A stretch of 64,000 nucleotides of DNA from an uncultured virus (IMG/VR IMGVR_UViG_2831345111_000004) (lineage: Duplodnaviria; Heunggongvirae; Uroviricota; Caudoviricetes). The first letter of the stretch is position 1; each line of letters opens with the position of its first letter. Where the stretch lies: IMG/VR virus record IMGVR_UViG_2831345111_000004, one strand, 5' to 3'. The translations under genes and the position numbers were made by a program. A model generated the notes under the pieces. The model was not told where the DNA came from. It did no database searches and saw only the letters and a program-made list of their open reading frames with translations. Below, one piece after another: positions 5,686 to 57,007 of this stretch.

Positions 5686-5745
5686 GAGACGAGTACGATG
5701 CAATCTGTATCCTGTATAGCTTGCATCGGCCAATCCCGCGGCGCG

Positions 5746-7890
5746 CTAAGTCCCCTCGGCGTCAGGCAACTCCATCTCCAGTGGCCCCAGGGTGAAATAG
5801 AACACAGAGCCGCCAGGCACAATTGTCTCTGCCCACATGCGACCACCATGCCGCTCCACCATTCGTTTCGCCAAGGCCAACCCTATCCCGCGGCCCTGAT
5901 GGGCTGACGCCTGATTGAAATAAGGCCTAAACATGTCGTCATGCATTTCTGTATCAAACCCAGGCCCATTGTCCTTCACGTAGAACACAGTTTCCATCTC
6001 CAATTGCTCCGCACCAATTTCAACAATTGGGTTTTCATTATCGATTGATGCGAAGTGGACCGCATTGTCGAGCAACGCGTTGTAGATGGTCCTTAGAATC
6101 AAGGCCGAGCCAATCATTCGCGGCATCGGCTTGGTCGTGAACGTAACCTTTGGGTAGCGCTGATGCAGTCCCAGCACCACAGGCGCCAGGATATCCGACA
6201 TACTCAAAAACTCGGGTTCGAACGGCATCGAGGTTCCACAGAGATAACTCACCGCACCCTCCAGCAGTCGTTCCATTCTGGAGGCAACGTCCATCATCTC
6301 ACCAACATTCTTGGCAGGTGGCGGCGTATCTTCCTCGCGCATGTTCTGGAGTAACTGGACCAGGGTCTCAAGGGATTCCTGAAGCAGAGTCGAAACCGAA
6401 TAGACAAAAGTTTCCAAATCACCCACCGCGTCCGAGAGACGCTTCTTCTGGGTGGACACGCGTTGATTCAGTTGGTCATTGAGGCGAAGTACTTCCGTTT
6501 CATTACGCTTACGCTCGGTGATATCGTCAAACAGCATGACGAAAAATCCCTTCTCAAGACCGCAAACACTGAATTCCAGCCAACGGCTAAGAGAGGGTAC
6601 CCATGCTTCAAAACGAGAGGAAACTCCAGAGTTGGCGGCGGACGCACAGCGCTCAAACAACTCCTTGTTGGTGCGGTAAAGGTCGGGCATGACATCACGC
6701 AGTTTTTGCGCGGTGATGTACATCGGATTCAACCCAGAGACAGTCTCAAAATGATTGTTGGACTCCAATACGATGAGGTCCGGCGAGCCGTCCTCAAGAG
6801 ATATTGCCTGGCAATAAGCTACGGCGGCCATCATATGCTCAAACAGACTTAGATAGCGCTTCCGGCTCTTGAGCAATTCCTCTTCAAAACGGTTTTGTTC
6901 GCTGATATCGACTATCGACCCCATGAGGTACGATTCTTTATTCACCGGTAACGTGTCGCCGTAGTAAGCAACATGGAACTCAGTTCCGTTCTTCCTTCGA
7001 TGAATAAGCTTTAGTCCTTGTAGGCGGCCATTTAGGGCTAACCCTTCTTGAATGTCGTGGAAGGAAAATCCACCCGCCCACAAATTCAGCTCTTCCGGAG
7101 TTTTACCAAGGATTTCATCTTCGGTATACCCAAAGGCATGGCAGAACGCTTCATTTACGGCGAGATATCGCCCATTATCCCGTTCGCTAATGAACGTGCT
7201 GGTCGGACTGCATTGGAAGAATTGATAGAACTTCCGCTCACTTTCCTTAAGCTTGTCCTCCATCTCCTTTCTGGAGGTGATATCCGTCGCAATGGCGCAA
7301 ACTCCGTAAACAATGCCATCCGAATTTCGCATCGGGGTTTTTGTCGTGAGAAAAGTAAGCGGCGCTCCTTTGGCGTTATGGTGCAGCGACTCCTCGAAAA
7401 TAATGCTCTTCCCTTCTCGCATCACTTCCCGGTCGCTAGCCATAAATTGTTTTGCGAGGTCCTCTGGGAAGACTTCGTCATCAAAGTGACCGATAACATT
7501 GGATGCCTTCAGGCCAAACATATTCTCCGCGGCATGGTTGAATACCAGATACCGACCGGACATGTCTTTGGCAATAATGACATCCGCAGAATTATCCGCC
7601 AGCGCCGAGAGCAGGATGCCCATTTCTGTTGACCGGGCTCTCGCCGAGTCCAACTCCGTACGCCATTTTTTGGTCTTGTAGATGTGATATCCAACGAGAA
7701 GTAGCAGGACAACCAGCGTCGCCACAAAAATGAAATAGAGGAGCGCCTCACTTGTCTTCAGGGCCGGATTACCGTCTTCACGGACATACCCCATCATCAG
7801 CAAAATGCCAAAAATCTGGAGCACAACTACGGAAGTGTGCGCAATGATAGGGAAGTTCGAAGGAGTCCTTCGGTCTCGTCGCGCTTGCAT
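5746..7890 (-). CDS. Membrane PAS-PAS-PAS sensor histidine kinase-like protein with degenerate H-box
   Basis: Two TM helices, three PAS/PAC units, HATPase N/G1/G2 boxes (LLDNA, DNGPG, GIGLA); H-box reads YSVSTLLQES. Confidence 0.9.
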   Translation of the reverse strand: MQARRDRRTPSNFPIIAHTSVVVLQIFGILLMMGYVREDGNPALKTSEALLYFIFVATLVVLLLLVGYHIYKTKKWRTELDSARARSTEMGILLSALADNSADVIIAKDMSGRYLVFNHAAENMFGLKASNVIGHFDDEVFPEDLAKQFMASDREVMREGKSIIFEESLHHNAKGAPLTFLTTKTPMRNSDGIVYGVCAIATDITSRKEMEDKLKESERKFYQFFQCSPTSTFISERDNGRYLAVNEAFCHAFGYTEDEILGKTPEELNLWAGGFSFHDIQEGLALNGRLQGLKLIHRRKNGTEFHVAYYGDTLPVNKESYLMGSIVDISEQNRFEEELLKSRKRYLSLFEHMMAAVAYCQAISLEDGSPDLIVLESNNHFETVSGLNPMYITAQKLRDVMPDLYRTNKELFERCASAANSGVSSRFEAWVPSLSRWLEFSVCGLEKGFFVMLFDDITERKRNETEVLRLNDQLNQRVSTQKKRLSDAVGDLETFVYSVSTLLQESLETLVQLLQNMREEDTPPPAKNVGEMMDVASRMERLLEGAVSYLCGTSMPFEPEFLSMSDILAPVVLGLHQRYPKVTFTTKPMPRMIGSALILRTIYNALLDNAVHFASIDNENPIVEIGAEQLEMETVFYVKDNGPGFDTEMHDDMFRPYFNQASAHQGRGIGLALAKRMVERHGGRMWAETIVPGGSVFYFTLGPLEMELPDAEGT

Positions 7891-8004
7891 ATTCTTTTTA
7901 GTAGCAAAAAAACAATATTCTAATGATTCCTAAGATGCTTTTCCATTACAAATGTAACGTACAAAATTCCTATGCGGACATAGGCTTTAAGTCTTTGTAT
8001 ATAA

Positions 8005-8032
8005 AAATGGGACCCGACAAAGGGTCCCATTT
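8005..8032 (-). terminator. Intrinsic terminator
   Basis: AAATGGGACCC/GGGTCCCATTT stem followed by T-run on the minus strand. Confidence 0.75.
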
Positions 8033-8033
8033 G

Positions 8034-16011: not shown

Positions 16012-16099
16012 AGTATAACTATAAATCCATTAACAGTCAAGAATCAAGGCCATATTAACTTCACATTACATTGACAAAAGTAAACAATAATGGTATAGT
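16012..16099. promoter_or_regulatory. Divergent sigma70 promoter pair
   Basis: Minus TTGACT-17-TATACT (16012-16040); plus TTGACA-17-TATAGT (16071-16099). Confidence 0.8.
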
Positions 16100-16134
16100 T
16101 TAACCTTCAATTTCAGACATAAACGGGCGCGCTC

Positions 16135-18892: not shown

Positions 18893-18964
18893 GCCATCCA
18901 ACCTTGATTAGCGTCGGCTATACCCTTGATGTAGGTCATTTATAACTTCATCAAGGAGCATATT

Positions 18965-21244: not shown

Positions 21245-21328
21245 TTCAATGATGATAAGTTAACAAAATTATTTAGGTATAGATAAGTTAACTTAAGGCG
21301 CTATCGTCTCCTGCCAATTTGATATAAC

Positions 21329-25978: not shown

Positions 25979-26061
25979 GTTTGTTAATTCGTCTTAAGTA
26001 TTGGTGGAGCAGATTCCTATACTGGATGTGGGTCAATACTTAACTTTTTGAGAGGTCAATC

Positions 26062-26835: not shown

Positions 26836-27016
26836 GATAGCCTCCCAATAGATTTTCCACAGCTAGGTATAGCGCAAATATAGCAAAGAAACACACAAAG
26901 CGCAAGCGTAAAGTTTTCAGGAATGAAGTCGATATCTAATTCAGAGCAACCGAGCTTTTCAATTTGTTAACTTCTGCTTATAATCGCCATTATCGGCGTA
27001 TTGATTGAGGTCCCTG

Positions 27017-30833: not shown

Positions 30834-31046
30834 GATTTTTCCTCTCAGGGGGCTTGTCGCCCCCAATTAACAATTGATGGGCGGCAGAGCCGCAAATAAG
30901 TTTCACGAATCTGTATAGCTCAGGCTGTGAGACTAGGAAAAATCGAATGGGTGGAAAAACAAAAGCCCGGCAGCTTACGCTACCAGGCTTTTAATTTATT
31001 AGCCTTAAAAGGCTAAATTCTTAGCAGTTTTTTCAGCCTTATAGGC

Positions 31047-36916: not shown

Positions 36917-36986
36917 TTGATTTCCTCCAGATTAAATTAGACCTGCTTCTGTATAGCCGCAGGCCACCCTTTCTCTGGCTGGACAA

Positions 36987-40094: not shown

Positions 40095-40151
40095 TTAGTG
40101 TTGTTTTGCAACTATGTAAAATAGTATAGTGTATTTATGCTACTAAGTCAA
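40095..40151 (-). promoter_or_regulatory. sigma70 promoter of prs-nadV with two NrtR-type operators
   Basis: TTGACT-17-TATACT (40123-40151); operators TTAGTGTTGTTTTGCAACTAT (40095-40115) and ATAGTGTATTTATGCTACTAA (40126-40146). Confidence 0.8.
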
Positions 40152-42414: not shown

Positions 42415-42458
42415 AGCGCCTTAGATGGGCTCGGCATGGGGTCAATCGAGTAAGTGTT

Positions 42459-43095: not shown

Positions 43096-43139
43096 CGCCG
43101 GCGCTATACCCATCAGGACTTACTATTTAACAGGAGGAA

Positions 43140-43530: not shown

Positions 43531-43534
43531 TCTC

Positions 43535-43592: not shown

Positions 43593-43601
43593 AGTTTGTT
43601 G

Positions 43602-43889: not shown

Positions 43890-43977
43890 TTTCCATTCCA
43901 GTCCTGATGTATTTGAATCCCACAGGTGGTATAGGTTGTGGCGAAAGAAAATCCCGGCCATACGACCGGGATGCGAG

Positions 43978-44235: not shown

Positions 44236-44305
44236 GGATATGTTCCTAATATGTTGGCGGTGGCCTGTTGAGGGAAGTTACATTCCGTATAGGCTCACCA
44301 ACCAT

Positions 44306-44397: not shown

Positions 44398-44452
44398 TGA
44401 TTGAGTATAGTGCGATTTTACCTACGCGGAAGTATTTTGATTCCGCTAGAGC

Positions 44453-44839
44453 TCAACCCAACCCGAGCTGGTCAAGTAACCGGTTAGCGTTATCCCCACC
44501 ATTAGAAGCGCAGGCGTGGTTCACGCAAAAAATTAAAACCGCCCCTTCTGGCGAGGTTTCCTTGCGCATATCGGGTTCACCACAAATCGGGCAGTCTACC
44601 CAATCACGCCGCACAACTTGTCGCGGGTCTTCAACCACAACAGAAAGTTTTCGCGTCTTGCGTGGCTCATACCGCTGCTCGGGATGAAAATCGGGGAAGC
44701 TTCCGCGCCCAATCGGACATTGCAGCGTATTTGCGCGATGATTTCCTTTTTGACGTCCGCAATGCTTACACAGGGGCACCGGGCTGGTGTTCAGGTTCAA
44801 CTCAAAGGTTCCGTCTTCAATCAGGGGCGCATCACTCAT
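44453..44839 (-). CDS. Double Zn-finger hypothetical protein
   Basis: CKHC...H...C and CPIC...CVNHAC. Confidence 0.7.
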   Translation of the reverse strand: MSDAPLIEDGTFELNLNTSPVPLCKHCGRQKGNHRANTLQCPIGRGSFPDFHPEQRYEPRKTRKLSVVVEDPRQVVRRDWVDCPICGEPDMRKETSPEGAVLIFCVNHACASNGGDNANRLLDQLGLG

Positions 44840-44850
44840 ACATCTTCCAT

Positions 44851-45291
44851 TTACGCAGGCAAACCGATATGCGACCAAACCCATTGGTTAAGCCAAGCCT
44901 GCTTACGCGCACTCAACATCGAATTAACTTCAGCAGGCGGCACCAGCCGGAATTCATCCACTTCCGGATAGTCAGGGCCGCTGGGATTTGTCACCATCGA
45001 CATGCAGAACATCTCGGCCGGATTGAGCGATACCCGGGCAAGGTAGAGCCGCATATCCTTTTCCTCGGTAAAAGGGTGCTGGCCAAAATCATGAGCGTTG
45101 GAGACCTCCGCTGCCGATAGGATGACGCCGGTCTCCTCCCGCAGCTCACGTACAGCTGCCGAGAGATGCGTTTCACCTTGGGCCGCCCAGCCTTTGGGAA
45201 AGTCCCATACGTCCTTGCCTGGAGGATGAACCAATAGCCAATGGCCGGTCTGGTTATCCACGAGAATGAACCCGCAACTGCACTTTTTCAT
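44851..45291 (-). CDS. Nudix hydrolase
   Basis: WDFPKG...GETHLSAAVRELREETG. Confidence 0.93.
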   Translation of the reverse strand: MKKCSCGFILVDNQTGHWLLVHPPGKDVWDFPKGWAAQGETHLSAAVRELREETGVILSAAEVSNAHDFGQHPFTEEKDMRLYLARVSLNPAEMFCMSMVTNPSGPDYPEVDEFRLVPPAEVNSMLSARKQAWLNQWVWSHIGLPA

Positions 45292-45321
45292 TATGTTTTA
45301 ATTACGAAAATGTAGTGTTAA

Positions 45322-45350
45322 ACTATGCCACAAAAATGCTTATTTGTCAA
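45322..45350 (-). promoter_or_regulatory. sigma70-type promoter
   Basis: TTGACA-17-CATAGT. Confidence 0.65.
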
Positions 45351-45361
45351 TTACATGGTTG

Positions 45362-46330
45362 TTAATCAGGCTCAGTCAGTCCATGACGGACGGTCGAGCG
45401 TAATTCTTCGTGCCCGAGGAATTCCTGGACCTCCTCCGGGGAGTAGCGAAGCAGAGCCTGGCGCGCAAAAGTATTGCGGAGAAGATTGACGCCGCGGTCT
45501 TCCTTCCGGTGGATGTTCGCCATGCGAAGCCAGGTATCGATGCGACGAAACACCCCTGACTCGGTGTAAGGTCGGCCGGCGCGCGTTGCTGGAAAGGCAA
45601 CCTCAGAACGTACGCCCATGTCATGTCGGTCTCGTTCCCATAGCTCCCAGAATCCCCGCGCCTGTCCTGGAAGGATAATGGATACATGCTCCCGGTGGAC
45701 GCCGGCCGGCAGGATACGCACCCTGTAATCCGGCCCAACAGCAGACCAGGGCATGGCCAGGAGTTCATTACAGCGTAACCCTGCGCCGAGGAGGAGCGCT
45801 GCCATTGCCCGGTCGCGGTCGCCCTTCCATCCATCCAGGAGCTTGATGGCCCTCCACAGGCGGTCCACTTCTTCGTCGGTCAGACTGGCGGGTTCAGGGA
45901 CGGCAAGCCCGCGTTCTTTTTTGAGTTCAAGAAGCATGGGGTTCGCTCCATCCCAGCCTAGTTGCCGCAAGGCGCGGTAGACGCGGTCGATGAGCTGCAG
46001 GTAACGCCGTCGGGACACCGCCTCGATGCCTTCTTTGTGCGTTCGCCGGCGGGAGACGTGCTTCAGCGAGAGTTGGTTGAAGTAGGCCTCAGCATCGTCC
46101 TGGGTTGCCTCGAGCAACGAGCTATGGCGTGCTTCGAGGAATCGCAGCCAGGTTTCGAATTGATGAGTGTAGGTATCGGCCGAGGAGGCGCGGAATTGCC
46201 GGCGTTGAGCAACCACCTCGCCGGCCAGCCAGCGTGCAAAGGATTCTCGCGGATGCAGAGACCAATCGAGCAATGAGCTGCCGGCAAACAGCAGACCGGA
46301 TTTAACGTCAATTTCGGGACTTTTCGCCAT
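45362..46330 (-). CDS. Tyrosine recombinase/integrase-family protein with degenerate active site
   Basis: RDRAM..LLLGAGLRCNEL, NLLRNTFA, FLGH; STVRH at the Tyr position. Confidence 0.9.
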   Translation of the reverse strand: MAKSPEIDVKSGLLFAGSSLLDWSLHPRESFARWLAGEVVAQRRQFRASSADTYTHQFETWLRFLEARHSSLLEATQDDAEAYFNQLSLKHVSRRRTHKEGIEAVSRRRYLQLIDRVYRALRQLGWDGANPMLLELKKERGLAVPEPASLTDEEVDRLWRAIKLLDGWKGDRDRAMAALLLGAGLRCNELLAMPWSAVGPDYRVRILPAGVHREHVSIILPGQARGFWELWERDRHDMGVRSEVAFPATRAGRPYTESGVFRRIDTWLRMANIHRKEDRGVNLLRNTFARQALLRYSPEEVQEFLGHEELRSTVRHGLTEPD

Positions 46331-46361
46331 AGTGGGTACGAGATTACGAAGCACCAAAGTG

Positions 46362-46495
46362 AAAGTCAAGTAACGAACAACCCGAATGAAACATAATGCC
46401 TAGCTTTTCTTGGAATATCCATGTGAAAGGGTCTTCCAGAAATACAAAAACTAAGCGGCTAAAGTATTTGAAGGTCTTGTGCGTTACTTGACTTT
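46362..46495. repeat. 19-bp inverted repeat (18/19) with 96-bp spacer
   Basis: AAAGTCAAGTAACGAACAA (46362-46380) and TTGTGCGTTACTTGACTTT (46477-46495). Confidence 0.9.
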
Positions 46496-46588
46496 GTTGA
46501 TGCCGAAGGCATTGGCGGTCGGATTTCTTTGCATCGTTTGCGAAATGAAGAATCTCCCGGCTGAGTCGTGGCTCAATGCGGCAGATGG

Positions 46589-46831
46589 TTACTTTTGAAT
46601 TACGCGGAGGGAGGGATGCTGGTCAGTCAGGAGTAAAAAATATTCCCATAAACCGATGGGAATAGCTCGCGAATCAGAATTGGTTTCAGGGGCCTCATAG
46701 CGCTGCCAGGTGCGATACCCTTTAGCCCCTGCATTAGACACAAGTTGGGCGGCCTCGGTTTGGGTCAGCCCTGCCGCCCTGCGAGCCGCAACAACCTCTT
46801 CAGGCGTGGGCGGGCGGAGCTTGGTTCGCAT
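46589..46831 (-). CDS. XRE-family HTH repressor (KorC-like)
   Basis: PPTPEEVVAARRAAGLTQTEAAQLV...YRTWQRYE...IP..LWE.F. Confidence 0.85.
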   Translation of the reverse strand: MRTKLRPPTPEEVVAARRAAGLTQTEAAQLVSNAGAKGYRTWQRYEAPETNSDSRAIPIGLWEYFLLLTDQHPSLRVIQK

Positions 46832-47102
46832 CTTGACGGCTTGCCAGTTTGTTAGCCCAGTAGCGGTCCCGCTCAGCCTCACTTACCGTGAGCGAGTGAT
46901 AGTTTTTTGCATCCTGCAAAGCCTGTTCAGCCGCAGCTTCTTTCGCGGCATAGAAACCTTCCAGGAAGGCTGCCAACTGAAATGAGTTTTCCAAATAGCT
47001 GTGCTTACCGCGACCTGTAACCCCGAAGCGCTGGAAGGCTTCACGACCCTCTTTTCGACAGGCGTGCGCCGTTTCGTTTGCCAACAGCGAATGATTGTAC
47101 AT
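46800..47102 (-). CDS. Hypothetical protein
   Basis: First gene downstream of the palindromic promoter; overlaps the HTH gene. Confidence 0.7.
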   Translation of the reverse strand: MYNHSLLANETAHACRKEGREAFQRFGVTGRGKHSYLENSFQLAAFLEGFYAAKEAAAEQALQDAKNYHSLTVSEAERDRYWANKLASRQDANQAPPAHA

Positions 47103-47128
47103 AGTGTTTAAGGGAAATATGGATGATT

Positions 47129-47159
47129 CATTATACGCCCAATGGGCGTATAATGTCAA
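47129..47159 (-). promoter_or_regulatory. Consensus sigma70 promoter embedded in a perfect 27-bp palindromic operator
   Basis: TTGACA-18-TATAAT; CATTATACGCCCA-A-TGGGCGTATAATG. Confidence 0.9.
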
Positions 47160-47222
47160 GGACGTTCCACTTTCCTATACAGGTATGCCAATAGGCATCA
47201 TCTAATCTTGAGAGGAAAAATC

Positions 47223-48197
47223 ATGCGTTACAAAGTGAAAGTCGAGATTGTCGCCTCGAACCGGCCACCAGTGTACGTGGGCAGTGCCACCGTCATTGCA
47301 GATTCAGAGGAAATCGCCATCGGGGATGCGTTAATGCAATGTGACGACGGCTCGCTCCAGGCGGATGAACATTTGCAAGGGACAGCAGAACTGCTCCCCT
47401 CTTTGCTAAGCGTCCAACGCTATGTGCTGGATTACGTCACTTACCGCTTTATCTACAACCTGGACGACGGTACGCTTCACCATCTCCAGCAGAACCGGGG
47501 TCCATTTTTATCGGAGTCAAATGGACCATGGCTGTCGGTGGGCAAGGATGTGCAGAAAAAGCTTCTGGATGAACTCGCTAATGGGCAGGAAAGCCTGCAT
47601 ACCATTATCGTCAATCCAGCCCGGTATTCCGCGGAGCAATGCTTCACCTTACCGGATTGGGTTCCACAGCGCTTCCTCTGGGTGGATTCGTGCAGCTACA
47701 AATTTAAGGGGATGCATAGGTATGCTGACCTTCGATTTGTGTATGACCGGCTGCATAATAAAGTTGAGTATGCGCAAATTGAAACGAAGACGGCCGGTTG
47801 GGTTTCATTACTCGATGAACTGGTTCCTGAAGTCGAAAGTTATTTCAAATCGATTCCTGGCGCGACTGAGTGTTGTGACCCCTGGGACTTCATCATCAGT
47901 AACGAGCTGCCTCCCTGGGTGGTCAATATCAAAAATGACCTTCCCTCCTGGGCCGAAGAAGAACCAGTGTCCTCGGTTATCGGACCTGTGAAGGTTATCG
48001 TGCTTTCTAACCTAGTCAACGGACAGCCAGCGCTGTACATGGCTGAAGTCGAGGGCGGTGATGGCAATCGGCATATCCACCAGGCCATCCAGGTAGGATT
48101 GATGGCTGGGTTGATGGAGCCCATGCTGTGTTTCTCCAAATCGGACCCAGTGGGCCAATCCATGGCCGACGCACTCGCCTGGTTGAACACTCCTTAG
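47223..48197 (+). CDS. Modular hypothetical protein (paralog of 48328..49221)
   Basis: GAGG RBS; internal duplicated RF.Y...LP.W unit. Confidence 0.85.
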   Translation: MRYKVKVEIVASNRPPVYVGSATVIADSEEIAIGDALMQCDDGSLQADEHLQGTAELLPSLLSVQRYVLDYVTYRFIYNLDDGTLHHLQQNRGPFLSESNGPWLSVGKDVQKKLLDELANGQESLHTIIVNPARYSAEQCFTLPDWVPQRFLWVDSCSYKFKGMHRYADLRFVYDRLHNKVEYAQIETKTAGWVSLLDELVPEVESYFKSIPGATECCDPWDFIISNELPPWVVNIKNDLPSWAEEEPVSSVIGPVKVIVLSNLVNGQPALYMAEVEGGDGNRHIHQAIQVGLMAGLMEPMLCFSKSDPVGQSMADALAWLNTP

Positions 48198-48327
48198 GCA
48201 AATACTGGCATCTCCACACACCTCATTCGAGGTGTGTTTTTTGCGTCAATCGCACCTTCCTATACTCAAAAGCCATAGGGCACATCATTCGCCGGTTCCC
48301 GGCGCCAATAATTACGGAAGGAAAAAC

Positions 48328-49221
48328 ATGCGATTCAAAATCAGTATCACGGCACAATTCCCGAGTCTCGCCGGTAGCGCGCCATTCCCCCTGGGTACGG
48401 CTATCGTGACGGCAGAAAATGTGGAAGCGGCAAAGGCCAAGGCCTTGGCGGAGCTAAGCACCGATGAATTTGTAGACGGCAAGGCATCGCCAGACTTCAC
48501 CATCATCGAAATGCCTCGTTTCCTTATCTCGGAAAACTGGAATCACTTCTTCGAAAAACTGGGGCAAAGAATAGTTCGGTTTGTCTATGACCATGAAACC
48601 GAATGCGTTGAGCATCTCGATATCCTGGGCGGCGATGAATGGACCCAAGTTTGGCATCCAGCTACCGAGATTCAGCGACAGGACTTCCAAGACAGTCTCG
48701 TCAATGCCAACGAAGGGTGCCTGGTCAATCCGCAAGACTACACCTGCGAAGAGTCCAATTCATGTCCGAGCTGGGCGACGCGCGTATCTGCCAACCTGAT
48801 ATATCCCAAGGTGGCGGTGCTGTGCTCCAATTCCAACGGAGAACCTGAGTTGTATACCTGTTCGCCCGCGGTCACCAAGGAGTCCTACGATGAAGGCCTG
48901 CATTACAGCATCGCCAAAAGCAATGCTGAAGACGAGGGCTACGAAGGACCCTACCTCGCCTTTGATGACAAGGACCAGGCAGCCAAGCAATTGGTGTCGA
49001 CTGCTGACTGGATGGGGACTCGCGAGAAGGCCTCAGAGGCGTCTGAAGTGGCCAGCGAACGGCAGTGGAATGCAGTTTGCAGCGACCAAGGCTGGAATGA
49101 CGCCACCCAGATTATTCATCTGATTGGTTTTATCCGGGGAAAGGGTTTGTTTTCAGAGTTTGCCGCCTATGCTGAAAAGGCTGCTGACGAAGAAAACGAA
49201 GAATCAATACTCGATATGTAA
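48328..49221 (+). CDS. Modular hypothetical protein (paralog of 47223..48197)
   Basis: AAGGA RBS; shared N-terminal, RFVYD and NG.P.LY modules. Confidence 0.85.
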   Translation: MRFKISITAQFPSLAGSAPFPLGTAIVTAENVEAAKAKALAELSTDEFVDGKASPDFTIIEMPRFLISENWNHFFEKLGQRIVRFVYDHETECVEHLDILGGDEWTQVWHPATEIQRQDFQDSLVNANEGCLVNPQDYTCEESNSCPSWATRVSANLIYPKVAVLCSNSNGEPELYTCSPAVTKESYDEGLHYSIAKSNAEDEGYEGPYLAFDDKDQAAKQLVSTADWMGTREKASEASEVASERQWNAVCSDQGWNDATQIIHLIGFIRGKGLFSEFAAYAEKAADEENEESILDM

Positions 49222-49292
49222 CGCTCAACACCTCGGCTTGCCGGGGTGTTTTTACGATAAACAAAAGAGCGCCAGTCGGCGCTCTGAGATTG

Positions 49293-49676
49293 TTAACTGT
49301 CCTTCTTGGGCAGAGCCTTCAAGACCTGGTCGATGGTGCCGACGAATTCTTTCCCGTCAGCCTTTTTCTCGAGCAGAATGCATTTTGTCCCGCGGGCTTT
49401 CATCCCCTTGATGACAAAGACATCCTTACCCAGCGTGAGCTCAGTATTCAACGGAGGCAAACCGTAGAGCCCATGGCTCGCCTCATAAATCTGCGCTTCA
49501 CGCGACAGTCCGCCTTCCACAAGGCCCTCGAGCTTCAACGTGAAGGTCGTCTCCGTGTAGGAGGCGTGACCTGCAGAAATTTGAATGCCGTGCTTTTCAG
49601 CAACACCTTTCAAGGCCTCATTCACCTCCTCACGAAGAATCTTCAGGAAGGCCGGGGTAATCGTTTTGTTTGCCAT
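49293..49676 (-). CDS. Hypothetical protein
   Basis: GAGG RBS, CTATAC motif upstream. Confidence 0.85.
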   Translation of the reverse strand: MANKTITPAFLKILREEVNEALKGVAEKHGIQISAGHASYTETTFTLKLEGLVEGGLSREAQIYEASHGLYGLPPLNTELTLGKDVFVIKGMKARGTKCILLEKKADGKEFVGTIDQVLKALPKKDS

Positions 49677-49733
49677 AATATTTCCTCTTTAGCCGACAGG
49701 TTGTCGTAAAGAGGTATAGGCAATTTGCGCGGT

Positions 49734-50237
49734 TTAGGCCGCGATGCCAAACTTACGCAGGTGGGCCTGTTTGACCTCATGGTAGCCCCGGCCATGCGTG
49801 ATGATGAACAACTCACCATTCTCACGGGTCAGGATGGCGCCGCTCATCGAAGAGCGCCCCTTATCCTTAAAACGGGTCAAGAAACAATCACCCGCTACAT
49901 CTGAAAACATCCGGAGTGCTTTTACTAGCGTATCGGAACACTTAGGCGCGCCATTAGTGTGGAGCATGTAGCGGGTTTTTGAGTGACGGCGTAACGCCTT
50001 AAGCTCTTGCGAGGCCTGCAATCGCGACGGACGAGGCAATCCCTCTGCCCGCGGCAATTGATACCAGAATATGGCAGGAAACCGCACCTGGCCCAGTGCG
50101 TCACGGAAGAGATAGCCGCGCTTTACCAAGCTGACCTCACCATTCTGCCGCACCGTCACATACTTATTCCGGTCGTACGCCAGAATATCCACCAGCTCCA
50201 ACCCAAACCCCGTATCTAAATACCCAATCATGCTCAA
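49734..50237 (-). CDS. Basic hypothetical protein
   Basis: Follows recD2 directly. Confidence 0.75.
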   Translation of the reverse strand: MSMIGYLDTGFGLELVDILAYDRNKYVTVRQNGEVSLVKRGYLFRDALGQVRFPAIFWYQLPRAEGLPRPSRLQASQELKALRRHSKTRYMLHTNGAPKCSDTLVKALRMFSDVAGDCFLTRFKDKGRSSMSGAILTRENGELFIITHGRGYHEVKQAHLRKFGIAA

Positions 50238-50240
50238 TCC

Positions 50241-52409
50241 TTAAATATCTTCAGACACGTCGAATTGCGCCTGTATGGCTGCTTTCAACCGTGTTTGCCG
50301 GCGCACCGAATTCACATTCTCGACCGCCATCTTGAGTGCCTTCTTCTGTCCGACCAGCACCACCATCTTCTGCCCGCGCGTCACGCCGGTATACAGCAGC
50401 TTTCGCTCCAACAATGCGTAATGCTGGGTCGTAAATGCCATGACAATGGCCGGCGCCTGGCTCCCCTGGAGCTTGTGTACGGTCGCGGCGTAGGCGAGCT
50501 GCACCTGGTCGAGGTCGCTCACGTCGTAGACCACGCTCCGACCGCCGAAGTCGATAGTGATTTCGTCCTCGACGATGCTCTCGATATAGCCGACGTCGCC
50601 GTTGAAGACGTCCTTGGCCACATCGTTCTCGGTTTGCATCACTTTGTCGCCCACTTTGTATTTCGTGTCGAATCGCTCAACGAAGGGCTTGTCTCCGGGA
50701 TTCAGGATGGCCTGCAGCCGTTCATTGAGGTGCCGCACACCCGTCACCCCCTTGTTCATCGGGCTAATCACCTGAATATCGCGTTTGGCATCAATCCCCA
50801 GCCGCGCAGGGAGCCGAGTGCTCACCAGGTCCAACACCTGCGCCACAACCTGCTCCGGCTCGTCGCGCTCGACGAAATAGAAGTCACCGGGTCGGTCTTT
50901 GGTTGAGAATTCAGGCTCACCCCCGCGATTTATAGCATGGGCGCCCGTAATGATGTGGCTACCGGCCGCTTGGCGGAAAATTTTAGTCAACCGGCAAACA
51001 CGAATCGCGCCAGAGGCCATAATATCGCCCAACACGTTCCCAGGCCCGACCGATGGCAACTGGTCTTCATCGCCCACAAGGAGCACGCTGGCGCCGTCCG
51101 GCACTGCCTTCAGGAGGCCATGCATGAGGTGGACATCCACCATGGAGCACTCATCGACCACCAAGAGGTCGCAATCAAGGCGATTGGTCTCGTTGTAGGT
51201 AGCGCCACCACCTGGCTTGAAGCCCAGCAGGCGGTGTATGGTGCTGGCAACCCGTCCCGTCGTCTCCGACATGCGCTTGGCTGCCCGGCCGGTCGGGGCG
51301 CAGAGCAGCATCTTGGCTCCTGCCTCGGCATACATTTTGAGGATAGCGTTTTCCAGGCTGGTTTTACCACAGCCCGGCCCGCCGGTAATCACCATGAATT
51401 TTGCATATCCAGCGGACAACAGCGCAAGCTCCTGGTCTTCAGAGAGCTTCATCCCTAAACTTCCCTTGATGCGCTCATACAAGGCGCGGGAATCAAACGC
51501 GCGCATCCGGCGTGGCGCCTTCACCAGCCTAGCAATATTCTGGGCAATACCAGTTTCGGTCGCATACATCGCCGGGTGATACAGGACGGTGCGGCCACGG
51601 TCATCCTCTTCCGGCACCAATCTCCCCTCAGCCAGTTCACGGTCGACACCCGCACTCACGAGGTCTTCACTGACACCCAGCAGCTCACAGGCCGCTTCTA
51701 CGAGTTTTTTGCGTTGTAGCCCGCAGTGGCCATCATTAGTGGCTTCCCATAAGGCATGGCCAATGCCGGCGTCGATGCGCTCACGCGAATCCATCCCCCA
51801 TCCGAGATTTTGGGCAATCTGGTCAGCGGAAAGGAAGCCAATGCCGCGAACATCATGGGCAAGACCATATGGATTGGTGCGGACCTTGGTCACAGCGTCG
51901 TCGCCATAGGTCTTATAGATACGCGTAGCGCGCGAGGTCGAGACTCCGTTGGTGTGCAAGAACAGCATAATGTCCTTGATGACCTTTTGCGAGGCCCAAC
52001 TCTCAGCAATGATGCGCATACGGCCTTCACCGATTCCACGCACCTTAAGCAGTTCTGCCGGTGAATGCTCGATGACTTCCAACACCCGCTCACCAAACAC
52101 ATCCACCATGCGCTTGGCGTAAGCCGGACCAATTCCCTTGACCATGCCGCTACCAAGGTAGCGTTCGATGCCCTCGACGCTCGAGGGCGGCGTCAGGCGG
52201 ACCGTTTCTGCCTTGAATTGGCGACCGTAGGATTTGTCGTTGAACCATTGCCCCGCAGCGGTGAGATACTCACCTGGCTTTACGATAGGCGCATGGCCCG
52301 TAACCGGAACAAGCCCCTTATGTAACGGAGCTTTCACCTGCAATACGCAGAATCCACTTTCCTCATTATGGAACGTGACGCGCTCCACCAGGCCGGAGAG
52401 TTCCTCCAT
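50241..52409 (-). CDS. recD2: RecD2 (RecD/TraA-family) helicase
   Basis: VERVTFHN..SGF, HhH (KGIG, GIGFLSADQIA), TGGPGCGKT, APTGRAA, DECSM, IFRQ, AYAATVHKLQGS, LLYTGVTR. Confidence 0.97.
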   Translation of the reverse strand: MEELSGLVERVTFHNEESGFCVLQVKAPLHKGLVPVTGHAPIVKPGEYLTAAGQWFNDKSYGRQFKAETVRLTPPSSVEGIERYLGSGMVKGIGPAYAKRMVDVFGERVLEVIEHSPAELLKVRGIGEGRMRIIAESWASQKVIKDIMLFLHTNGVSTSRATRIYKTYGDDAVTKVRTNPYGLAHDVRGIGFLSADQIAQNLGWGMDSRERIDAGIGHALWEATNDGHCGLQRKKLVEAACELLGVSEDLVSAGVDRELAEGRLVPEEDDRGRTVLYHPAMYATETGIAQNIARLVKAPRRMRAFDSRALYERIKGSLGMKLSEDQELALLSAGYAKFMVITGGPGCGKTSLENAILKMYAEAGAKMLLCAPTGRAAKRMSETTGRVASTIHRLLGFKPGGGATYNETNRLDCDLLVVDECSMVDVHLMHGLLKAVPDGASVLLVGDEDQLPSVGPGNVLGDIMASGAIRVCRLTKIFRQAAGSHIITGAHAINRGGEPEFSTKDRPGDFYFVERDEPEQVVAQVLDLVSTRLPARLGIDAKRDIQVISPMNKGVTGVRHLNERLQAILNPGDKPFVERFDTKYKVGDKVMQTENDVAKDVFNGDVGYIESIVEDEITIDFGGRSVVYDVSDLDQVQLAYAATVHKLQGSQAPAIVMAFTTQHYALLERKLLYTGVTRGQKMVVLVGQKKALKMAVENVNSVRRQTRLKAAIQAQFDVSEDI

Positions 52410-54650: not shown

Positions 54651-54899
54651 ATGTCTACTTCAAATCACAAGTGTGGCGTTTGTGATGCCCGCGAGAGTGA
54701 GGTGGATAGGCTCGTCAAGCTCGGCAGGATGGGGCATATTTGCCTCACCTGCCTGGAGCTTGTAGCGGAGATGGCCCTGGATAGACCGATGACGAGAAGC
54801 GGAGACTTGCTCTCACTAACCTCTCAACAATACCCGCCGGAAACCGAAAACGTCGTCCCAATCAGGCCGCCGTTCCGGTGGTTGTCAAAAGATGATTAA
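54651..54899 (+). CDS. Stand-alone ClpX C4-type zinc-finger protein
   Basis: CGVCDARESEVDRLV......ICLTCLELVAEM. Confidence 0.8.
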   Translation: MSTSNHKCGVCDARESEVDRLVKLGRMGHICLTCLELVAEMALDRPMTRSGDLLSLTSQQYPPETENVVPIRPPFRWLSKDD

Positions 54900-55528
54900 A
54901 TAAGAACCAGCCTGTTCGTCAGCGCATACCGCATGATGTCCATGCTTGTCTTAAGCTTAAGTTTCTGCAAAATCCGACTTCTGTAAGTAGAGATAGTGTT
55001 TACATTACAGCCAATATTTTCTGCAATCTGTTTTGGCGTCTTACCGTTTGCGATGTGGCACATCACCTGATATTCACGGTCAGACAAGGACTCATGCGGG
55101 TGTGCTGGCGCATTCGATACCAAGGTGCCTGCCAGCACGTCAGCGAACTCTGCGCTGACATAGCGCCCGCCCGCCATGACGCGTTTGGCCGCACTGACCA
55201 GCTCATCCGGCGAACAACCCTTATTGACGAGGCCATTCCCGCCTGCCTTGAAAACCCTAGGTCCAACAGTTGAGTCAGGTAACATGCTATGGACCAAAAC
55301 CGGGCCTGAGATACCCATTCCGCGAATATCTGTAAGCATTTCCAGGCCATTTCTATCAGGAAGATGAATATCAAGAACGGCTAAATCCCATGTCTTGGTA
55401 TATAACAGCTTTTCACCTTCGGCAGCAGTTCCCGCCTCCGCAACTACACTCCAGCCCTGCGCTTGAAACAACTGACCAATCCCATTACGAAGCATTGGAT
55501 GGTCATCAATAATTATTATGTTCGACAT
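54896..55528 (-). CDS. NarL/UvrY-family response regulator
   Basis: DDHP, LAVLD, LSDRE...IANG, NTISTYRSR (LuxR HTH). Confidence 0.95.
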   Translation of the reverse strand: MSNIIIIDDHPMLRNGIGQLFQAQGWSVVAEAGTAAEGEKLLYTKTWDLAVLDIHLPDRNGLEMLTDIRGMGISGPVLVHSMLPDSTVGPRVFKAGGNGLVNKGCSPDELVSAAKRVMAGGRYVSAEFADVLAGTLVSNAPAHPHESLSDREYQVMCHIANGKTPKQIAENIGCNVNTISTYRSRILQKLKLKTSMDIMRYALTNRLVLI

Positions 55529-55550
55529 ACCATTTTCCACTTATATAACG

Positions 55551-56690
55551 CTATGAAATCACCCGTTGTACTGGGAGAACCAATGAAATTGAACTACCTT
55601 TGATGTCTGGCCTGGTCAGCAACTTCACTGCCCCGCCATACATCGCGGCACGCTCAAAAAATCCACGTAAGCCAAGGCTCTTCCCGACGCCCCCCTGATT
55701 GACTTGCGCAACTACAGATGCCGGAAACCCGACACCGTTATCCGTCACCTCCAACTTATAGTCATTATTGAGTAGTTGAAGGCGAACAAAGAAACTACTT
55801 GCCTTGGAGTGCTTGGCCAAATTGGTCAATAACTCCTGCAAACTTCTATAAAGCTGCAGCGCCATGTCCGGCTCAGGGTCCGTCCATTCACCACACACTT
55901 CAATGTTTCCGCGGATTCCAATACGTTTACAAAATTCAATGACAAGATTGCTCGATGCTGCTGCCAACCCTTGCGTCCGCAACACATCGGGCTTCAACTC
56001 ATAAGCAATGCGTTTGGCTGATACCATGACCGCATCCACCTGCTTCATCAGGCTGCTCACCTGCGAGGTAATATTAGACGGGATGTTGACTGAAGAGGCA
56101 GACACTTCGCTTTGCAATCGATGTATGGCCAACTTCAGCACCGTGATTTCCTGGCCCAGGTGGTCATGAATATTTCTCGCCACCTCCGCACGCTCTTCTT
56201 CCCGAATAAACTGGAATTCCGTTGCAAGCTTTCGTAGCTGGGTCTGGCAGTTTTCGGTTTGCTGCCTATCTTCAAGACTAATATTGGCGGCAATCCCGCC
56301 GACCTGCAGCTCATCCCCCTGGACAGGAAACAACATCAAGCACCAGATATTGCCGTTCTTGTCGTCGATTTCAACAACGTCCGGCTCCTGGCTGGCCACA
56401 ACCTTTCGGTGGCTGGCGCGCATTTGCAACGCCAGGTCAGGATTCAAGGATTTGGCACAGGAGTTCCCGAGCTCAGAACATTTTTGGGCATCACAGGTGG
56501 AAGGGCATTGCTGAAGCTTGCTGTATTGCCTGTTTCGCAGAAGGACCGTGCCGCTTCGGTCCATCAGCCATGCCGGCATGGGGATAGACCAGAGGTAGCG
56601 CATCACGCCGTTTGGGATTTCCGGATTTACGGTAGCACGCCCCTGATTCCGGCTTTGAGCCATCGTTGATGTGGTTACTGCGACTTCCAT
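55551..56690 (-). CDS. Cytoplasmic PAS + HisKA_3 histidine kinase
   Basis: EERAEVARNIHDHLGQ, QELLTNLAKHS, DNGVGF, GL.G..ER. Confidence 0.93.
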   Translation of the reverse strand: MEVAVTTSTMAQSRNQGRATVNPEIPNGVMRYLWSIPMPAWLMDRSGTVLLRNRQYSKLQQCPSTCDAQKCSELGNSCAKSLNPDLALQMRASHRKVVASQEPDVVEIDDKNGNIWCLMLFPVQGDELQVGGIAANISLEDRQQTENCQTQLRKLATEFQFIREEERAEVARNIHDHLGQEITVLKLAIHRLQSEVSASSVNIPSNITSQVSSLMKQVDAVMVSAKRIAYELKPDVLRTQGLAAASSNLVIEFCKRIGIRGNIEVCGEWTDPEPDMALQLYRSLQELLTNLAKHSKASSFFVRLQLLNNDYKLEVTDNGVGFPASVVAQVNQGGVGKSLGLRGFFERAAMYGGAVKLLTRPDIKGSSISLVLPVQRVIS

Positions 56691-57007
56691 CGAATCTCTT
56701 CCTAGGACTTGGCTAAGCTATCACATGCCTTAATCCGAACACCGTCCATAATTAGTTCGCGGCCATACTAACAGAGACGAAAGATTCAGGATAGAGATAT
56801 CTTCAAATGCAAAAACTGCCTGACGCCCAGCTTTAAATTCGTTCGCAACCACAGCCATAATTCCTATTTTTAATTGTTTCTAATTTGTAACAAGAGGGCA
56901 GCAAGTCTACTCCAACCAAAAAAATTTTGGCAACTAGAAGTTAGCGAATCGGGCTGCGAGCCCCTATACATCTAATATCCAGTCATTTTTTTAGATATGT
57001 AATTCGC

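What the first reader, a model, noticed from the sequence alone, without database searches (positions are those of the whole stretch)
5714..56969. Second promoter-like class: strand-oriented CTATAC upstream of 13 genes
Seen: (C/G)CTATAC on the coding strand at 5714(-), 18918(+), 26017(+), 26867(-), 30913(-), 36951(-), 43104(+), 43929(-), 44287(-), 47175(+), 48260(+), 49714(-) and 56964(+). Ten lie 28-42 nt before the start. I see no obvious -35, and the base after TATAC varies, unlike the invariant T of sigma70/RpoS -10 elements. Several have TGT(A/G)G a few nt later (ccttgATGTAGGTCA, tggATGTGGGTCA, cacCTGTGGG, ctagCTGTGG). Nearly all downstream genes are hypotheticals. Inference: a regulon read by an element-encoded sigma factor, RNAP or activator, i.e. 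a second expression programme.
Basis: partly seen in the sequence, partly recalled or inferred. Interest (0 to 1): 0.78.

Follow-up and report, generated by a model that had tools for sequence, protein, structure and literature searches.

The report
Private CTATAC promoters of a megaplasmid
A six-letter signal, CTATAC, sits just upstream of about one gene in seven on a giant conjugative plasmid but almost never on the host chromosome, so it is very probably a promoter private to the plasmid, and the plasmid carries a previously unrecognised sigma-factor-like gene that may read it.

Summary
All 13 sites are at the stated coordinates and strands. The window is part of a conjugative megaplasmid of about 410 kb (contigs C7, C8 and C10). 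There CTATAC is the most enriched of all hexamers 15-70 nt upstream of starts on the coding strand: 82 observed against 6.1 expected. It precedes 72 of 534 plasmid genes but only 10 of about 3,350 genes elsewhere in the genome.

The motif is S-CTATAC with no -35 box and no conserved T after it. A GG-centred box often follows about 7 nt downstream.

Two related giant elements use the same code: a Variovorax plasmid and an Achromobacter contig. Four plasmids related through the T4SS do not.

The host has no RpoS by the NCBIfam model. Pfam and PHROGs find no sigma factor or RNA polymerase on the plasmid. One conserved 309-aa hypothetical protein (C8:16042-16971) folds as sigma domain 2 plus sigma domain 4, and all three code-using elements carry it. 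This is an inference; nothing here shows it.

The parts
5714..5719 (-). gCTATAC promoter-like site, 28 nt before the ATG at 5685 (ORF to 5338, no family)
   Evidence: My gene caller chose a start at 5703 instead.
18918..18923 (+). gCTATAC, 41 nt before the TTG at 18965 (352 aa, phrog_5960, unknown function); followed by ccttgatGTAGGTCA
26017..26022 (+). cCTATAC, 39 nt before the ATG at 26062 (96 aa, no family); followed by tggatgtGGGTCA
26867..26872 (-). gCTATAC, 31 nt before the ATG at 26835 (130 aa, phrog_24108; homologue on the Variovorax plasmid)
30913..30918 (-). gCTATAC, 46 nt before the TTG at 30866 or 79 nt before the ATG at 30833 (about 360 aa, no family)
36951..36956 (-). gCTATAC, 34 nt before the ATG at 36916 (158 aa, phrog_15575); followed by agaagcAGGTC
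43104..43109 (+). gCTATAC, 30-33 nt before the ATGATG at 43140 (62 aa); followed by ccatcAGGAC
43929..43934 (-). cCTATAC, 39 nt before the ATG at 43889 (95 aa); a terminator-like hairpin plus T run lies just upstream
44287..44292 (-). cCTATAC, 51 nt before the ATG at 44235 (ORF 43978-44235, 85 aa); a terminator-like hairpin plus T run lies just upstream
47175..47180 (+). cCTATAC, 42 nt before the ATG at 47223 (324 aa, no family)
48260..48265 (+). cCTATAC, 62 nt before the start at 48328 (297 aa, no family); a terminator-like hairpin plus T run lies upstream
49714..49719 (-). cCTATAC, 37 nt before the ATG at 49676 (ORF 49293-49676, 127 aa)
56964..56969 (+). cCTATAC, 38 nt before the ATG at 57008 (129 aa, PilZ domain)
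21277..21282 (-). tCTATAC, 32 nt before the ATG at 21244 (237 aa). Preceded by T rather than C/G, so its class is uncertain.
40124..40129 (-). Not a member of the class. This CTATAC lies inside a near-consensus sigma70-type promoter (TTGACT-17-TATACT) 42 nt before the PRPP-synthetase-like gene.

Best explanation
S-CTATAC is the -10-like core of a promoter class private to a conjugative megaplasmid of about 410 kb (contigs C7, C8 and C10; the window is C10:1-64000). It needs no -35 box. Transcription probably starts about 7-8 nt downstream, at a GG-centred box (CTATAC-N7-GG[A/T]C), which leaves a leader of 20-35 nt that holds the RBS. About 70-90 plasmid genes are headed by it. Roughly 100 others have near-consensus sigma70 promoters, so the plasmid runs two expression programmes.

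The most likely reader is the host core RNA polymerase carrying a plasmid-encoded, highly divergent sigma70-family protein. That protein is C8:16042-16971, 309 aa, outside the window, next to the tra genes. It has a sigma-2-like domain and a sigma-4/LuxR-type HTH.

Shown here: the enrichment, position, strand and element specificity of the motif, its conservation in related elements, and the sigma-like predicted fold. Inferred: that the site is a promoter, where transcription starts, and that this protein reads it.
For: Motif statistics:
- CTATAC is the top hexamer in the -70..-15 windows of the plasmid: 82 observed against 6.1 expected, of 183 occurrences in all, z = 30.8. The reverse-complement word occurs only 21 times.
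- The distance from hexamer to start peaks at 30-39 nt (41 of 183 sites).
- 72 of 534 plasmid genes carry it 20-50 nt upstream, against 10 genes on the other 29 contigs, which hold about 3,350 genes.
- Test without gene calls: 86 of 183 sites on the plasmid pass, against 10 in the opposite orientation and a control mean of 12.6. In the rest of the genome 45 of 497 pass, against a control of 68.7 of 995.

Architecture:
- No -35: 61 of 72 sites match TTGACA at 3 of 6 positions or fewer at 16-18 bp spacing, and no upstream k-mer is enriched except the motif's own reverse complement.
- A terminator-like hairpin lies within 60 nt upstream in 23 of 72 sites, against 70 of 420 control regions.
- Five back-to-back divergent pairs occur.

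Related elements:
- The same code is used on the Variovorax plasmid NZ_LR594690.1 (50 of 136 sites promoter-like, control 14.4 of 150) and on an Achromobacter contig of 487 kb (109 of 232, control 10.2 of 109).
- Halomonas plasmid NZ_CP011053.1 does not use it (5 of 92, control 5.6 of 108).
- In that plasmid and three other T4SS-related plasmids SCTATAC is rarer than its control word.

Host:
- The RpoS model finds no hit over its cut-off. The best hit is RpoD at 279 bits against a cut-off of 378.7.
- None of the 10 Sigma70_r2 hits of the genome lies on the plasmid.

Candidate reader:
- tblastn finds it in both other code-using elements. In PLSDB it occurs only on 4 Variovorax megaplasmids among 72,556 plasmids.
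- AlphaFold model of the N-domain: pLDDT 85.
- In a Foldseek-independent search of 48,161 chains, ranks 1-21 are, by their entry titles, all sigma factors or complexes that hold one, most of them domain 2: SigB Z 6.8; the T4 gp45-dependent activation complex 7d7d_F Z 6.2; Taq sigmaA domain 2 on -10 DNA Z 6.1.
- The full-length model aligns to whole ECF and FliA sigmas over 130-147 residues at Z 8.3-8.6, though at 18 A rmsd because the two domains are placed differently.
- Foldseek's top hits on the full-length model are sigma factors.
- Nearest ESM-Atlas clusters are ECF and phage sigma factors, score 0.96.
- 6 of 78 distant family members give sub-threshold Sigma70_r2 hits in the N-domain. 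7 give Sigma70_r4_2 hits and 1 a Sigma70_ECF hit in the C-domain.
- The 8 long metagenome loci that carry a homologue hold 57 CTATAC against 30.5 for control words, and 13 promoter-like sites against 2.7.
- The most divergent homologue (Variovorax) goes with a relaxed code, CTANAC. The two closer ones go with strict CTATAC.
Against: - No transcription-start or expression data exist: no sequencing run could be listed.
- The sigma assignment is by fold only. Z scores are modest (5.3-6.8 for the N-domain) and Foldseek E-values for the N-domain alone are 0.4-1.5.
- No Pfam or NCBIfam sigma model reaches its cut-off.
- hhalign against the host's own sigmas matches only the HTH, best P 0.0014.
- The C-domain matches LuxR, KorA and sigma-4 HTHs equally well, so the protein could be an activator rather than a sigma.
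- A sigma with a conserved domain 4 would be expected to read a -35 box, and none is seen.
- The gene sits in the tra cluster and could regulate transfer genes only.
- The Halomonas plasmid, which does not use the code, has a very distant relative (19.8 bits).
- Co-occurrence rests on three elements whose hosts all belong to Burkholderiales, so a conserved host factor is not excluded by that argument.
- 58 other proteins are shared by the three code-users and absent from the non-user.
Confidence: 0.55

Rival explanations
1. CTATAC is a private promoter, but something else on the element reads it: an unrecognised sigma, a gp55-like factor or an RNA polymerase among the many unknown proteins. 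On this reading the sigma-like protein at C8:16042-16971 only regulates the neighbouring transfer genes.
For: - 59 plasmid proteins, many of unknown function, are shared with both other code-using elements and absent from the non-user.
- The candidate lies inside the tra cluster, between a DUF2274 gene and traU.
- A very distant relative sits on a plasmid that does not use the code.
- The element carries many T4-like nucleic-acid genes, including an RIIA-like gene, a ribonucleotide reductase, RNA ligases and endonuclease VII, and T4 uses a -10-only late promoter.
Against: - Pfam on the ORFs of 60 aa or more and PHROGs on 288 ORFs without a Pfam family found no sigma, gp55 or RNA polymerase.
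- No D.DGD polymerase motif occurs in any plasmid ORF.
- Four large unknown proteins have no sequence relative in the PDB.
- An HMM of the candidate's family finds only one member on the plasmid.
Confidence: 0.2
2. A host factor reads CTATAC. This could be RpoD tolerating a TATAC -10 box, perhaps helped by a plasmid-encoded activator or a polymerase modifier, or another host sigma conserved in Burkholderiales.
For: - TATAC keeps the -12 T and -11 A of the sigma70 -10 box.
- CTATAC and CTACAC equal positions -13 to -8 of the RpoS consensus CTAYRCT (recalled from the literature, not from any call).
- All three code-using elements live in Burkholderiales hosts.
- 17 genes have a sigma70 promoter just upstream of the CTATAC site.
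Against: - Only 10 of about 3,350 non-plasmid genes carry the motif at promoter distance, which is no more than control words give.
- The T at -7 is not conserved: 18 of 86 sites.
- There is no TGn extended -10 and no -35.
- The invariant C on each side of TATA is not a sigma70 requirement.
- No RpoS was found in a genome that is 100% complete by marker genes.
- Chromosomal upstream regions are topped by TAAAAT, TATAAT and TAGAAT instead.
Confidence: 0.2
3. The motif is not a promoter. It could act on the RNA (a processing site or a binding site in the leader) or be some other DNA site, such as a protein-binding or methylation site, that happens to lie upstream of genes.
For: No transcription-start data exist. 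The motif is on the coding strand, so it could be part of a longer leader RNA.
Against: - It often follows a terminator-like hairpin directly (23 of 72 sites against 70 of 420 control regions).
- It occurs in back-to-back divergent pairs 10-30 bp apart.
- It is an AT-rich TATA core at the classic distance in front of an RBS.
- In tandem cases it lies downstream of a sigma70 promoter, not at a fixed place in the leader.
Confidence: 0.05

Closest known systems
SigN (ZpdN) regulon of Bacillus subtilis plasmid pBS32 (PMC6751061; passages read)
   Same: A sigma factor encoded on a large plasmid directs host polymerase to a regulon that lies on the plasmid. The paper reports weak homology of SigN to known sigmas and that no SigN promoters were found on the chromosome.
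   Different: - SigN promoters have both a -35 and a -10 box, and the regulon was mapped by Rend-seq. Here there is no -35 and no experimental mapping.
- The host here is Gram-negative.
- The regulon here is far larger: about 70-90 sites on this plasmid and 109 on the Achromobacter element.
- No sequence relation to SigN was tested.
RpoS (sigma-38) dependent -10 element, CTATACT / CTAYRCT (consensus recalled from the literature)
   Same: CTATAC, and on the Variovorax plasmid also CTACAC, is identical to positions -13 to -8 of the RpoS consensus, including the hallmark C at -13. RpoS promoters also have a weak -35 or none.
   Different: - The T at -7 is not conserved (18 of 86 sites).
- The host has no RpoS by TIGR02394.
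- There is no chromosomal regulon.
- A conserved GG box lies at the presumed start.
Phage T4 late promoters (TATAAATA, read by gp55 with gp33 and the gp45 clamp; recalled)
   Same: Both are -10-only promoters with no -35, used as a second programme by an element rich in T4-like nucleic-acid genes. The candidate's N-domain aligns to chain F of the gp45-dependent activation complex 7d7d at Z 6.2 over 78 residues.
   Different: - The sequence differs.
- No PHROGs gp55 or gp33 family hit was found.
- The candidate keeps a sigma-4-like domain, which gp55 lacks.
- No clamp gene was seen on the plasmid.
ECF (group 4) sigma factors
   Same: The predicted architecture is the same two domains, sigma-2 plus sigma-4. 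The nearest structures and the nearest language-model clusters are ECF sigmas.
   Different: ECF promoters depend on a -35 box. No ECF model reaches its cut-off. The candidate also has a disordered, acidic N-terminal extension of about 90 residues.

Membership tests
sigma70-family sigma factor (for the candidate reader C8:16042-16971) | Sigma domain 2 fold | tested here: met
   N-domain model, pLDDT 85. By entry title, ranks 1-21 of 48,161 chains are all sigma factors or complexes that hold one, most of them domain 2, at Z 5.3-6.8, rmsd 2.3-5.0 A, 61-88 residues aligned. The Z scores are modest, so this is fold-level support only.
sigma70-family sigma factor (for the candidate reader C8:16042-16971) | Sigma domain 4 (helix-turn-helix that reads the -35 box and binds the beta flap) | tested here: inconclusive
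   The C-domain matches sigma region 4 at Z 8-9 (SigF, sigmaE r4 on DNA, SigR r4). It matches LuxR-type and KorA HTHs equally well.
sigma70-family sigma factor (for the candidate reader C8:16042-16971) | Score over the curated cut-off of a sigma profile (Pfam Sigma70_r2 or r4, NCBIfam) | tested here: not met
   The protein itself hits only KorA (E 0.005) and UhpA (E 0.12). Among 78 distant relatives, 6 have Sigma70_r2, 7 Sigma70_r4_2 and 1 Sigma70_ECF hits, all below cut-off.
sigma70-family sigma factor (for the candidate reader C8:16042-16971) | Binds core RNA polymerase and directs promoter-specific initiation | not testable with these tools
   Needs biochemistry.
RpoS-dependent promoters | -10 box CTATACT with C at -13 and T at -7 | tested here: not met
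   CTATAC is invariant by construction. The next base is T in only 18 of 86 sites (A 28, C 26, G 14).
RpoS-dependent promoters | The host encodes RpoS and uses the motif on its chromosome | tested here: not met
   TIGR02394 gives no hit over its cut-off in a genome 100% complete by markers. Only 10 of about 3,350 non-plasmid genes carry the motif 20-50 nt upstream.
T4-type late promoters (gp55, gp33, clamp) | -10-only promoter without a -35 box | tested here: met
   No upstream position or k-mer is conserved in any of three elements.
T4-type late promoters (gp55, gp33, clamp) | gp55 and gp33 homologues on the element | tested here: inconclusive
   No PHROGs sigma or late-transcription family hit in the 288 ORFs scanned. 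The only link is fold-level likeness of the N-domain to chain F of 7d7d, Z 6.2.
Plasmid-encoded sigma with a plasmid-confined regulon (SigN type) | The regulon lies on the plasmid, not on the chromosome | tested here: met
   72 of 534 plasmid genes against 10 of about 3,350 other genes. The test without gene calls agrees.
Plasmid-encoded sigma with a plasmid-confined regulon (SigN type) | Bipartite -35/-10 promoter and autoregulation | tested here: not met
   There is no -35. The sigma-like gene is not preceded by a forward CTATAC. Instead a conserved A/GAGTATA(T/G) lies about 40 nt upstream in 4 of 7 loci.
Extended -10 sigma70 promoters | TGn immediately upstream of the -10 hexamer | tested here: not met
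   The two bases before CTATAC are S and N (position -1: C 34, G 40 of 86), not TG.

The most novel reading that the evidence does not exclude
Giant conjugative plasmids of Burkholderiales encode a previously unrecognised clade of the sigma70 superfamily that matches no Pfam or NCBIfam model. It has about 105 representatives among 1.84 billion protein clusters. This clade would read a -10-only CTATAC (or CTANAC) element without a -35 box and without the -7 T. That would give these plasmids a phage-like private transcription programme of about 70-130 promoters each, invisible to the host's own promoter code.
Probability: 0.5. Interest if true: 0.82.

Novelty: new variant of a known kind. Interest (0 to 1): 0.72.

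Why it matters
If the reading is right, a family of plasmids of 400-800 kb controls roughly one gene in seven through its own sigma factor and promoter code, as a large phage does. That would explain how hundreds of cargo genes of unknown function are kept silent or switched on together and insulated from host regulation. It would define a new sigma clade whose -10 recognition does without the -7 T. It would also give a simple sequence tag, S-CTATAC-N7-GG upstream of an RBS, for recognising members of this plasmid family and their transcription units in genomes and metagenomes. The promoter and its factor would form an orthogonal expression pair for Betaproteobacteria. The question becomes directly testable with one gene and one reporter.

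Tried and rejected
- Sequencing runs: none was listed for window 42000-50500, so no expression evidence either way.
- Near-identity DNA search of window 40000-52000: one 79-bp hit in plasmids and none in phages.
- Pfam at E <= 1e-5 (<= 1e-3 for the window ORFs) on the plasmid ORFs of 60 aa or more, and PHROGs at E <= 1e-4 on 288 ORFs without a Pfam family: no sigma or RNA polymerase. The only hit was the LuxR-type response regulator at window 54896-55540, weakly matching sigma region 4.
- Six-frame Sigma70_r2 search of the genome: none of the 10 hits lies on the plasmid.
- D.DGD polymerase motif: none in plasmid ORFs.
- Four large unknown proteins against PDB sequences: nothing.
- hhalign of the candidate family against six host sigmas: only weak HTH matches.
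- PDB sequence-profile search with the family: only the C-terminal HTH matched.
- Foldseek on the N-domain alone: no row with E <= 0.001, although 47 of the 50 rows shown are sigma-factor chains.
- Homologue searches: genome contigs gave one locus, viral contigs none, and a sample of 401 genomes of the host's order only the window's own genome. An association test across genomes was therefore not possible.
- ESM Atlas on a second shared unknown protein (C7:2002-2571): no usable hit.
- Literature: 'CTATAC' + promoter + plasmid (140 papers, 15 listed) and a five-term megaplasmid/sigma-factor search (402 papers, 15 listed) showed nothing relevant in titles or abstract starts. 'plasmid-encoded sigma factor' returned 11 papers, mostly on SigN of pBS32. 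I found no paper describing this motif or this protein family in those three searches.

Full report
**Observation**

CTATAC occurs 27 times in the window on both strands. Dinucleotide shuffles give 12.05 +/- 3.10, and 0 of 100 shuffles reach 27. All 13 listed sites are at the stated coordinates and strands, and each is preceded by C or G. Using the ORF list and the contexts, ten sites lie 28-42 nt before a start codon that has an RBS. The other three lie 46, 51 and 62 nt away. My automatic gene calls disagree on the start or the strand for 5 of the 13.

I therefore added a test that uses no gene calls. It asks whether a site is followed within 20-50 nt by an RBS, a start codon and an ORF of at least 50 aa. 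In the window 9 of 27 sites pass. Two pass in the opposite orientation, and the 89 permutations of the same six letters give a mean of 1.9 and a maximum of 8.

**What the window is**

The window is the first 64 kb of contig C10 of a 3.69-Mb assembly. Three contigs stand apart from the rest: C7 (225 kb), C8 (108 kb) and C10 (77 kb). Their G+C is 52-54% against about 57% elsewhere, and their CTATAC density is three times higher.

Pfam and PHROGs scans show these contigs to be a conjugative megaplasmid. It carries:
- an F-type T4SS (TraL, E, C, F, H, G, N, U and TrbC) and a TrwB-type coupling protein;
- ParA/ParB, Rep- and TrfA-like proteins and an actin-like segregation protein;
- a large set of phage-like nucleic-acid genes: ribonucleotide reductase, thymidylate synthase, dNMP kinase, RNA ligases, a Pnkp-like protein, an RIIA-like protein, endonuclease VII, a family-A DNA polymerase, RecA and GyrA/B-like proteins.

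Genes of all three contigs have homologues on one 487-kb Achromobacter contig. That fits a single element of at least 410 kb.

**Replicon-wide statistics**

- On the three contigs CTATAC is the most enriched of all 4,096 hexamers in the -70..-15 windows on the coding strand: 82 observed against 6.1 expected, out of 183 occurrences in all, z = 30.8. The reverse-complement word occurs 21 times.
- On chromosomal contigs it is not among the top 25 hexamers (21 observed, about 12.6 expected). The top words there are TAAAAT, TATAAT and TAGAAT.
- The distance from the hexamer to the start peaks at 30-39 nt (41 sites).
- 72 of 534 plasmid genes have the motif 20-50 nt upstream, against 10 genes on the other 29 contigs, which hold about 3,350 genes.
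- Without gene calls: 86 of 183 sites pass on the plasmid (opposite orientation 10; control mean 12.6; control maximum 45, for the overlapping word CCTATA). In the rest of the genome 45 of 497 pass, against a control of 68.7 of 995.

**Anatomy**

- The logo is S-CTATAC.
- The base after the hexamer is free (A28 C26 G14 T18 of 86 sites).
- There is no -35. Only weak T preferences appear upstream. 61 of 72 sites match TTGACA at 3 of 6 positions or fewer at 16-18 bp spacing. The only enriched upstream k-mers are the motif's own reverse complement, from divergent pairs, and TATA words from tandem sigma70 promoters.
- Downstream, GG most often begins after 7 nt. [TC]AGG[AT] occurs in 20 of 72 sites against 3 in a control window, and GG[AT]C in 22 against 4.
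- A terminator-like hairpin plus T run lies within 60 nt upstream of 23 of 72 sites, against 70 of 420 control upstream regions and 166 of 1,000 random windows.
- Five back-to-back divergent pairs occur.
- The plasmid also has near-consensus sigma70 promoters (TTGACA-17-TATAnT) in front of 103 of 533 genes. 17 genes have both kinds in tandem.

So there are two promoter classes. CTATAC behaves as a -10-like element about 7-8 nt upstream of a G start, giving leaders of 20-35 nt. The start position is inferred.

**Relatives**

TraC relatives in PLSDB include Variovorax plasmids of about 800 kb (45% identity) and Halomonas plasmids (41%).

| Element | CTATAC sites that pass the call-free test | Control words |
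|---|---|---|
| This plasmid | 86 of 183 | mean 12.6 |
| Variovorax NZ_LR594690.1 | 50 of 136 | 14.4 of 150 |
| Achromobacter 487-kb contig | 109 of 232 | 10.2 of 109 |
| Halomonas NZ_CP011053.1 | 5 of 92 | 5.6 of 108 |

- On the Variovorax plasmid the motif has the same CTATAC-N5-7-(T)AGGAC look.
- On the Achromobacter contig CTATAC is again the top hexamer (93 observed against 7.6 expected). About two thirds of the listed genome-wide pattern matches fall on that one contig.
- In the Halomonas plasmid, a second Halomonas plasmid, a Pseudomonas mandelii plasmid and Burkholderia pM7012, SCTATAC is rarer than its control word.
- The Variovorax code is relaxed at the fourth position: CTACAC 50 against 7.1 expected, CTATAC 35 against 4.3, CTAAAC 25 against 3.6, CTAGAC 22 against 3.4. 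The other two elements are strict.
I tested conservation on elements I fetched myself.

**Who reads it: host factors**

The RpoS model TIGR02394 has no hit over its cut-off in a genome that is 100% complete by marker genes. The best hit is RpoD at 279 bits against a cut-off of 378.7. The Sigma70_r2 hits over the cut-off are, by size and by my own reading of their sequences, RpoD, RpoH, two FliA-like proteins and four ECF sigmas, and none lies on the plasmid. The chromosome does not use the motif. These points, together with the missing -7 T, the missing TGn and the missing -35, argue against RpoS and make RpoD alone unlikely.

**Who reads it: plasmid factors**

No sigma or polymerase is recognised by Pfam or PHROGs. 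tblastn found 59 plasmid proteins that are shared with both other code-users and absent from the Halomonas non-user. One of these is C8:16042-16971 (309 aa), which I picked out on reading its sequence. Its findings are as follows.

- It has no Pfam or NCBIfam family.
- It has 100 homologues at 41-77% identity, none with a name beyond 'hypothetical protein', on contigs up to 640 kb.
- The family has 105 representatives at E <= 1e-3 among 1.84 billion clusters.
- In PLSDB it occurs only on the four Variovorax megaplasmids. In a sample of 401 genomes of the host's order it occurs only in the window's own genome.
- AlphaFold models: full length, pLDDT 73.8 with both cores above 90; N-domain alone, pLDDT 85.
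- Foldseek on the full model lists almost only sigma factors over 190-250 columns, at E 3e-3 to 9e-2.
- A Foldseek-independent search aligns the full model to whole FliA, SigL and SigH at Z 8.3-8.6, although at about 18 A rmsd because the two domains are placed differently. It aligns the C-domain to sigma region 4, LuxR and KorA HTHs at Z 8-9.
- For the N-domain alone, ranks 1-21 of 48,161 chains are, by their entry titles, all sigma factors or complexes that hold one, most of them domain 2, at Z 5.3-6.8. They include Taq sigmaA domain 2 on -10 DNA and chain F of the T4 gp45-dependent activation complex.
- The nearest ESM-Atlas clusters are ECF and phage sigma factors, score 0.96.
- Among 78 distant family members, 6 have sub-threshold Sigma70_r2 hits in the N-domain. 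7 have Sigma70_r4_2 hits and 1 a Sigma70_ECF hit in the C-domain.
- Eight long metagenome loci that carry a homologue hold 57 CTATAC against 30.5 for control words, and 13 promoter-like sites against 2.7.

**Weaknesses**

- The sigma assignment is at fold level, with modest Z scores.
- Sequence-profile methods see only the HTH.
- A sigma with a conserved domain 4 but no -35 box is odd.
- The gene sits in the tra cluster next to a conserved DUF2274 gene and might regulate transfer only.
- The Halomonas non-user has a very distant relative (19.8 bits).
- All code-using hosts seen here are Burkholderiales.

**Verdict**

I rate the statement that CTATAC is a promoter class private to this plasmid family at about 0.9. 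I rate the full statement, that the sigma-like protein at C8:16042-16971 reads it, at about 0.55.

The closest known cases are the plasmid-confined SigN regulon of pBS32 (PMC6751061; passages read), RpoS -10 elements and T4 late promoters. This case differs from each in at least one defining feature. I file it as a new variant of a known kind: an alternative sigma with a private regulon.

Noticed in passing
plasmid contigs C7, C8 and C10; e.g. window 40088-40160 (-), 16090-16134 (+): A first promoter class: near-consensus sigma70 promoters (TTGACA-17-TATAnT) precede 103 of 533 plasmid genes. 17 genes have such a promoter in tandem 25-30 nt upstream of a CTATAC site.
   Followed up: partly
G000:C8:15990-16041, and L089, L117, L120 about 40 nt upstream of the sigma-like gene: A conserved AAGTATATG (GAGTATAGC in this genome) lies about 40 nt before the start of the sigma-like gene in 4 of the 7 loci inspected. 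It could be that gene's own promoter, or on the other strand a CATATAC/GCTATAC site pointing away from the gene.
   Followed up: no
Variovorax plasmid NZ_LR594690.1 (L032-L072): The code is relaxed there to CTANAC. All four variants at the fourth position are enriched 6- to 8-fold upstream of genes. The plasmid in hand and the Achromobacter element are strict for T.
   Followed up: partly
window 35550-40081 and 4308-5387: An NAD-related cluster: NADAR domain protein, NAPRTase-family protein (592 aa), PRPP-synthetase-like protein and an ADP-ribosylglycohydrolase, as seen in large phages.
   Followed up: no
G000:C7:76308-76844: A formaldehyde-activating enzyme (Fae) gene on the plasmid, which suggests a methylotrophic host. 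The plasmid also carries TerC/TerD, CheW/MCP and several GGDEF-EAL and two-component genes.
   Followed up: no
G000:C8:61607-65030 (L016:2696-6119): Six consecutive same-strand ORFs of 182-201 aa with no family, directly after the plasmid's recA. They look like a tandem paralogue array.
   Followed up: no
window 47208-48197 and 48232-49221: Two adjacent ORFs that are each 329 aa by the longest-ORF list, each with its own CTATAC site and no family. They may be paralogous cassettes.
   Followed up: no
Halomonas plasmid NZ_CP011053.1, 48696-49271 (+): A 191-aa protein distantly related to the sigma-like family (19.8 bits), on a plasmid that shows no CTATAC code and no other strong private hexamer.
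   Followed up: partly
G000:C7:188481-190628: A 715-aa protein with no Pfam family and no PDB sequence relative matches phage family phrog_2426 (unknown function) at E = 6e-182.
   Followed up: no
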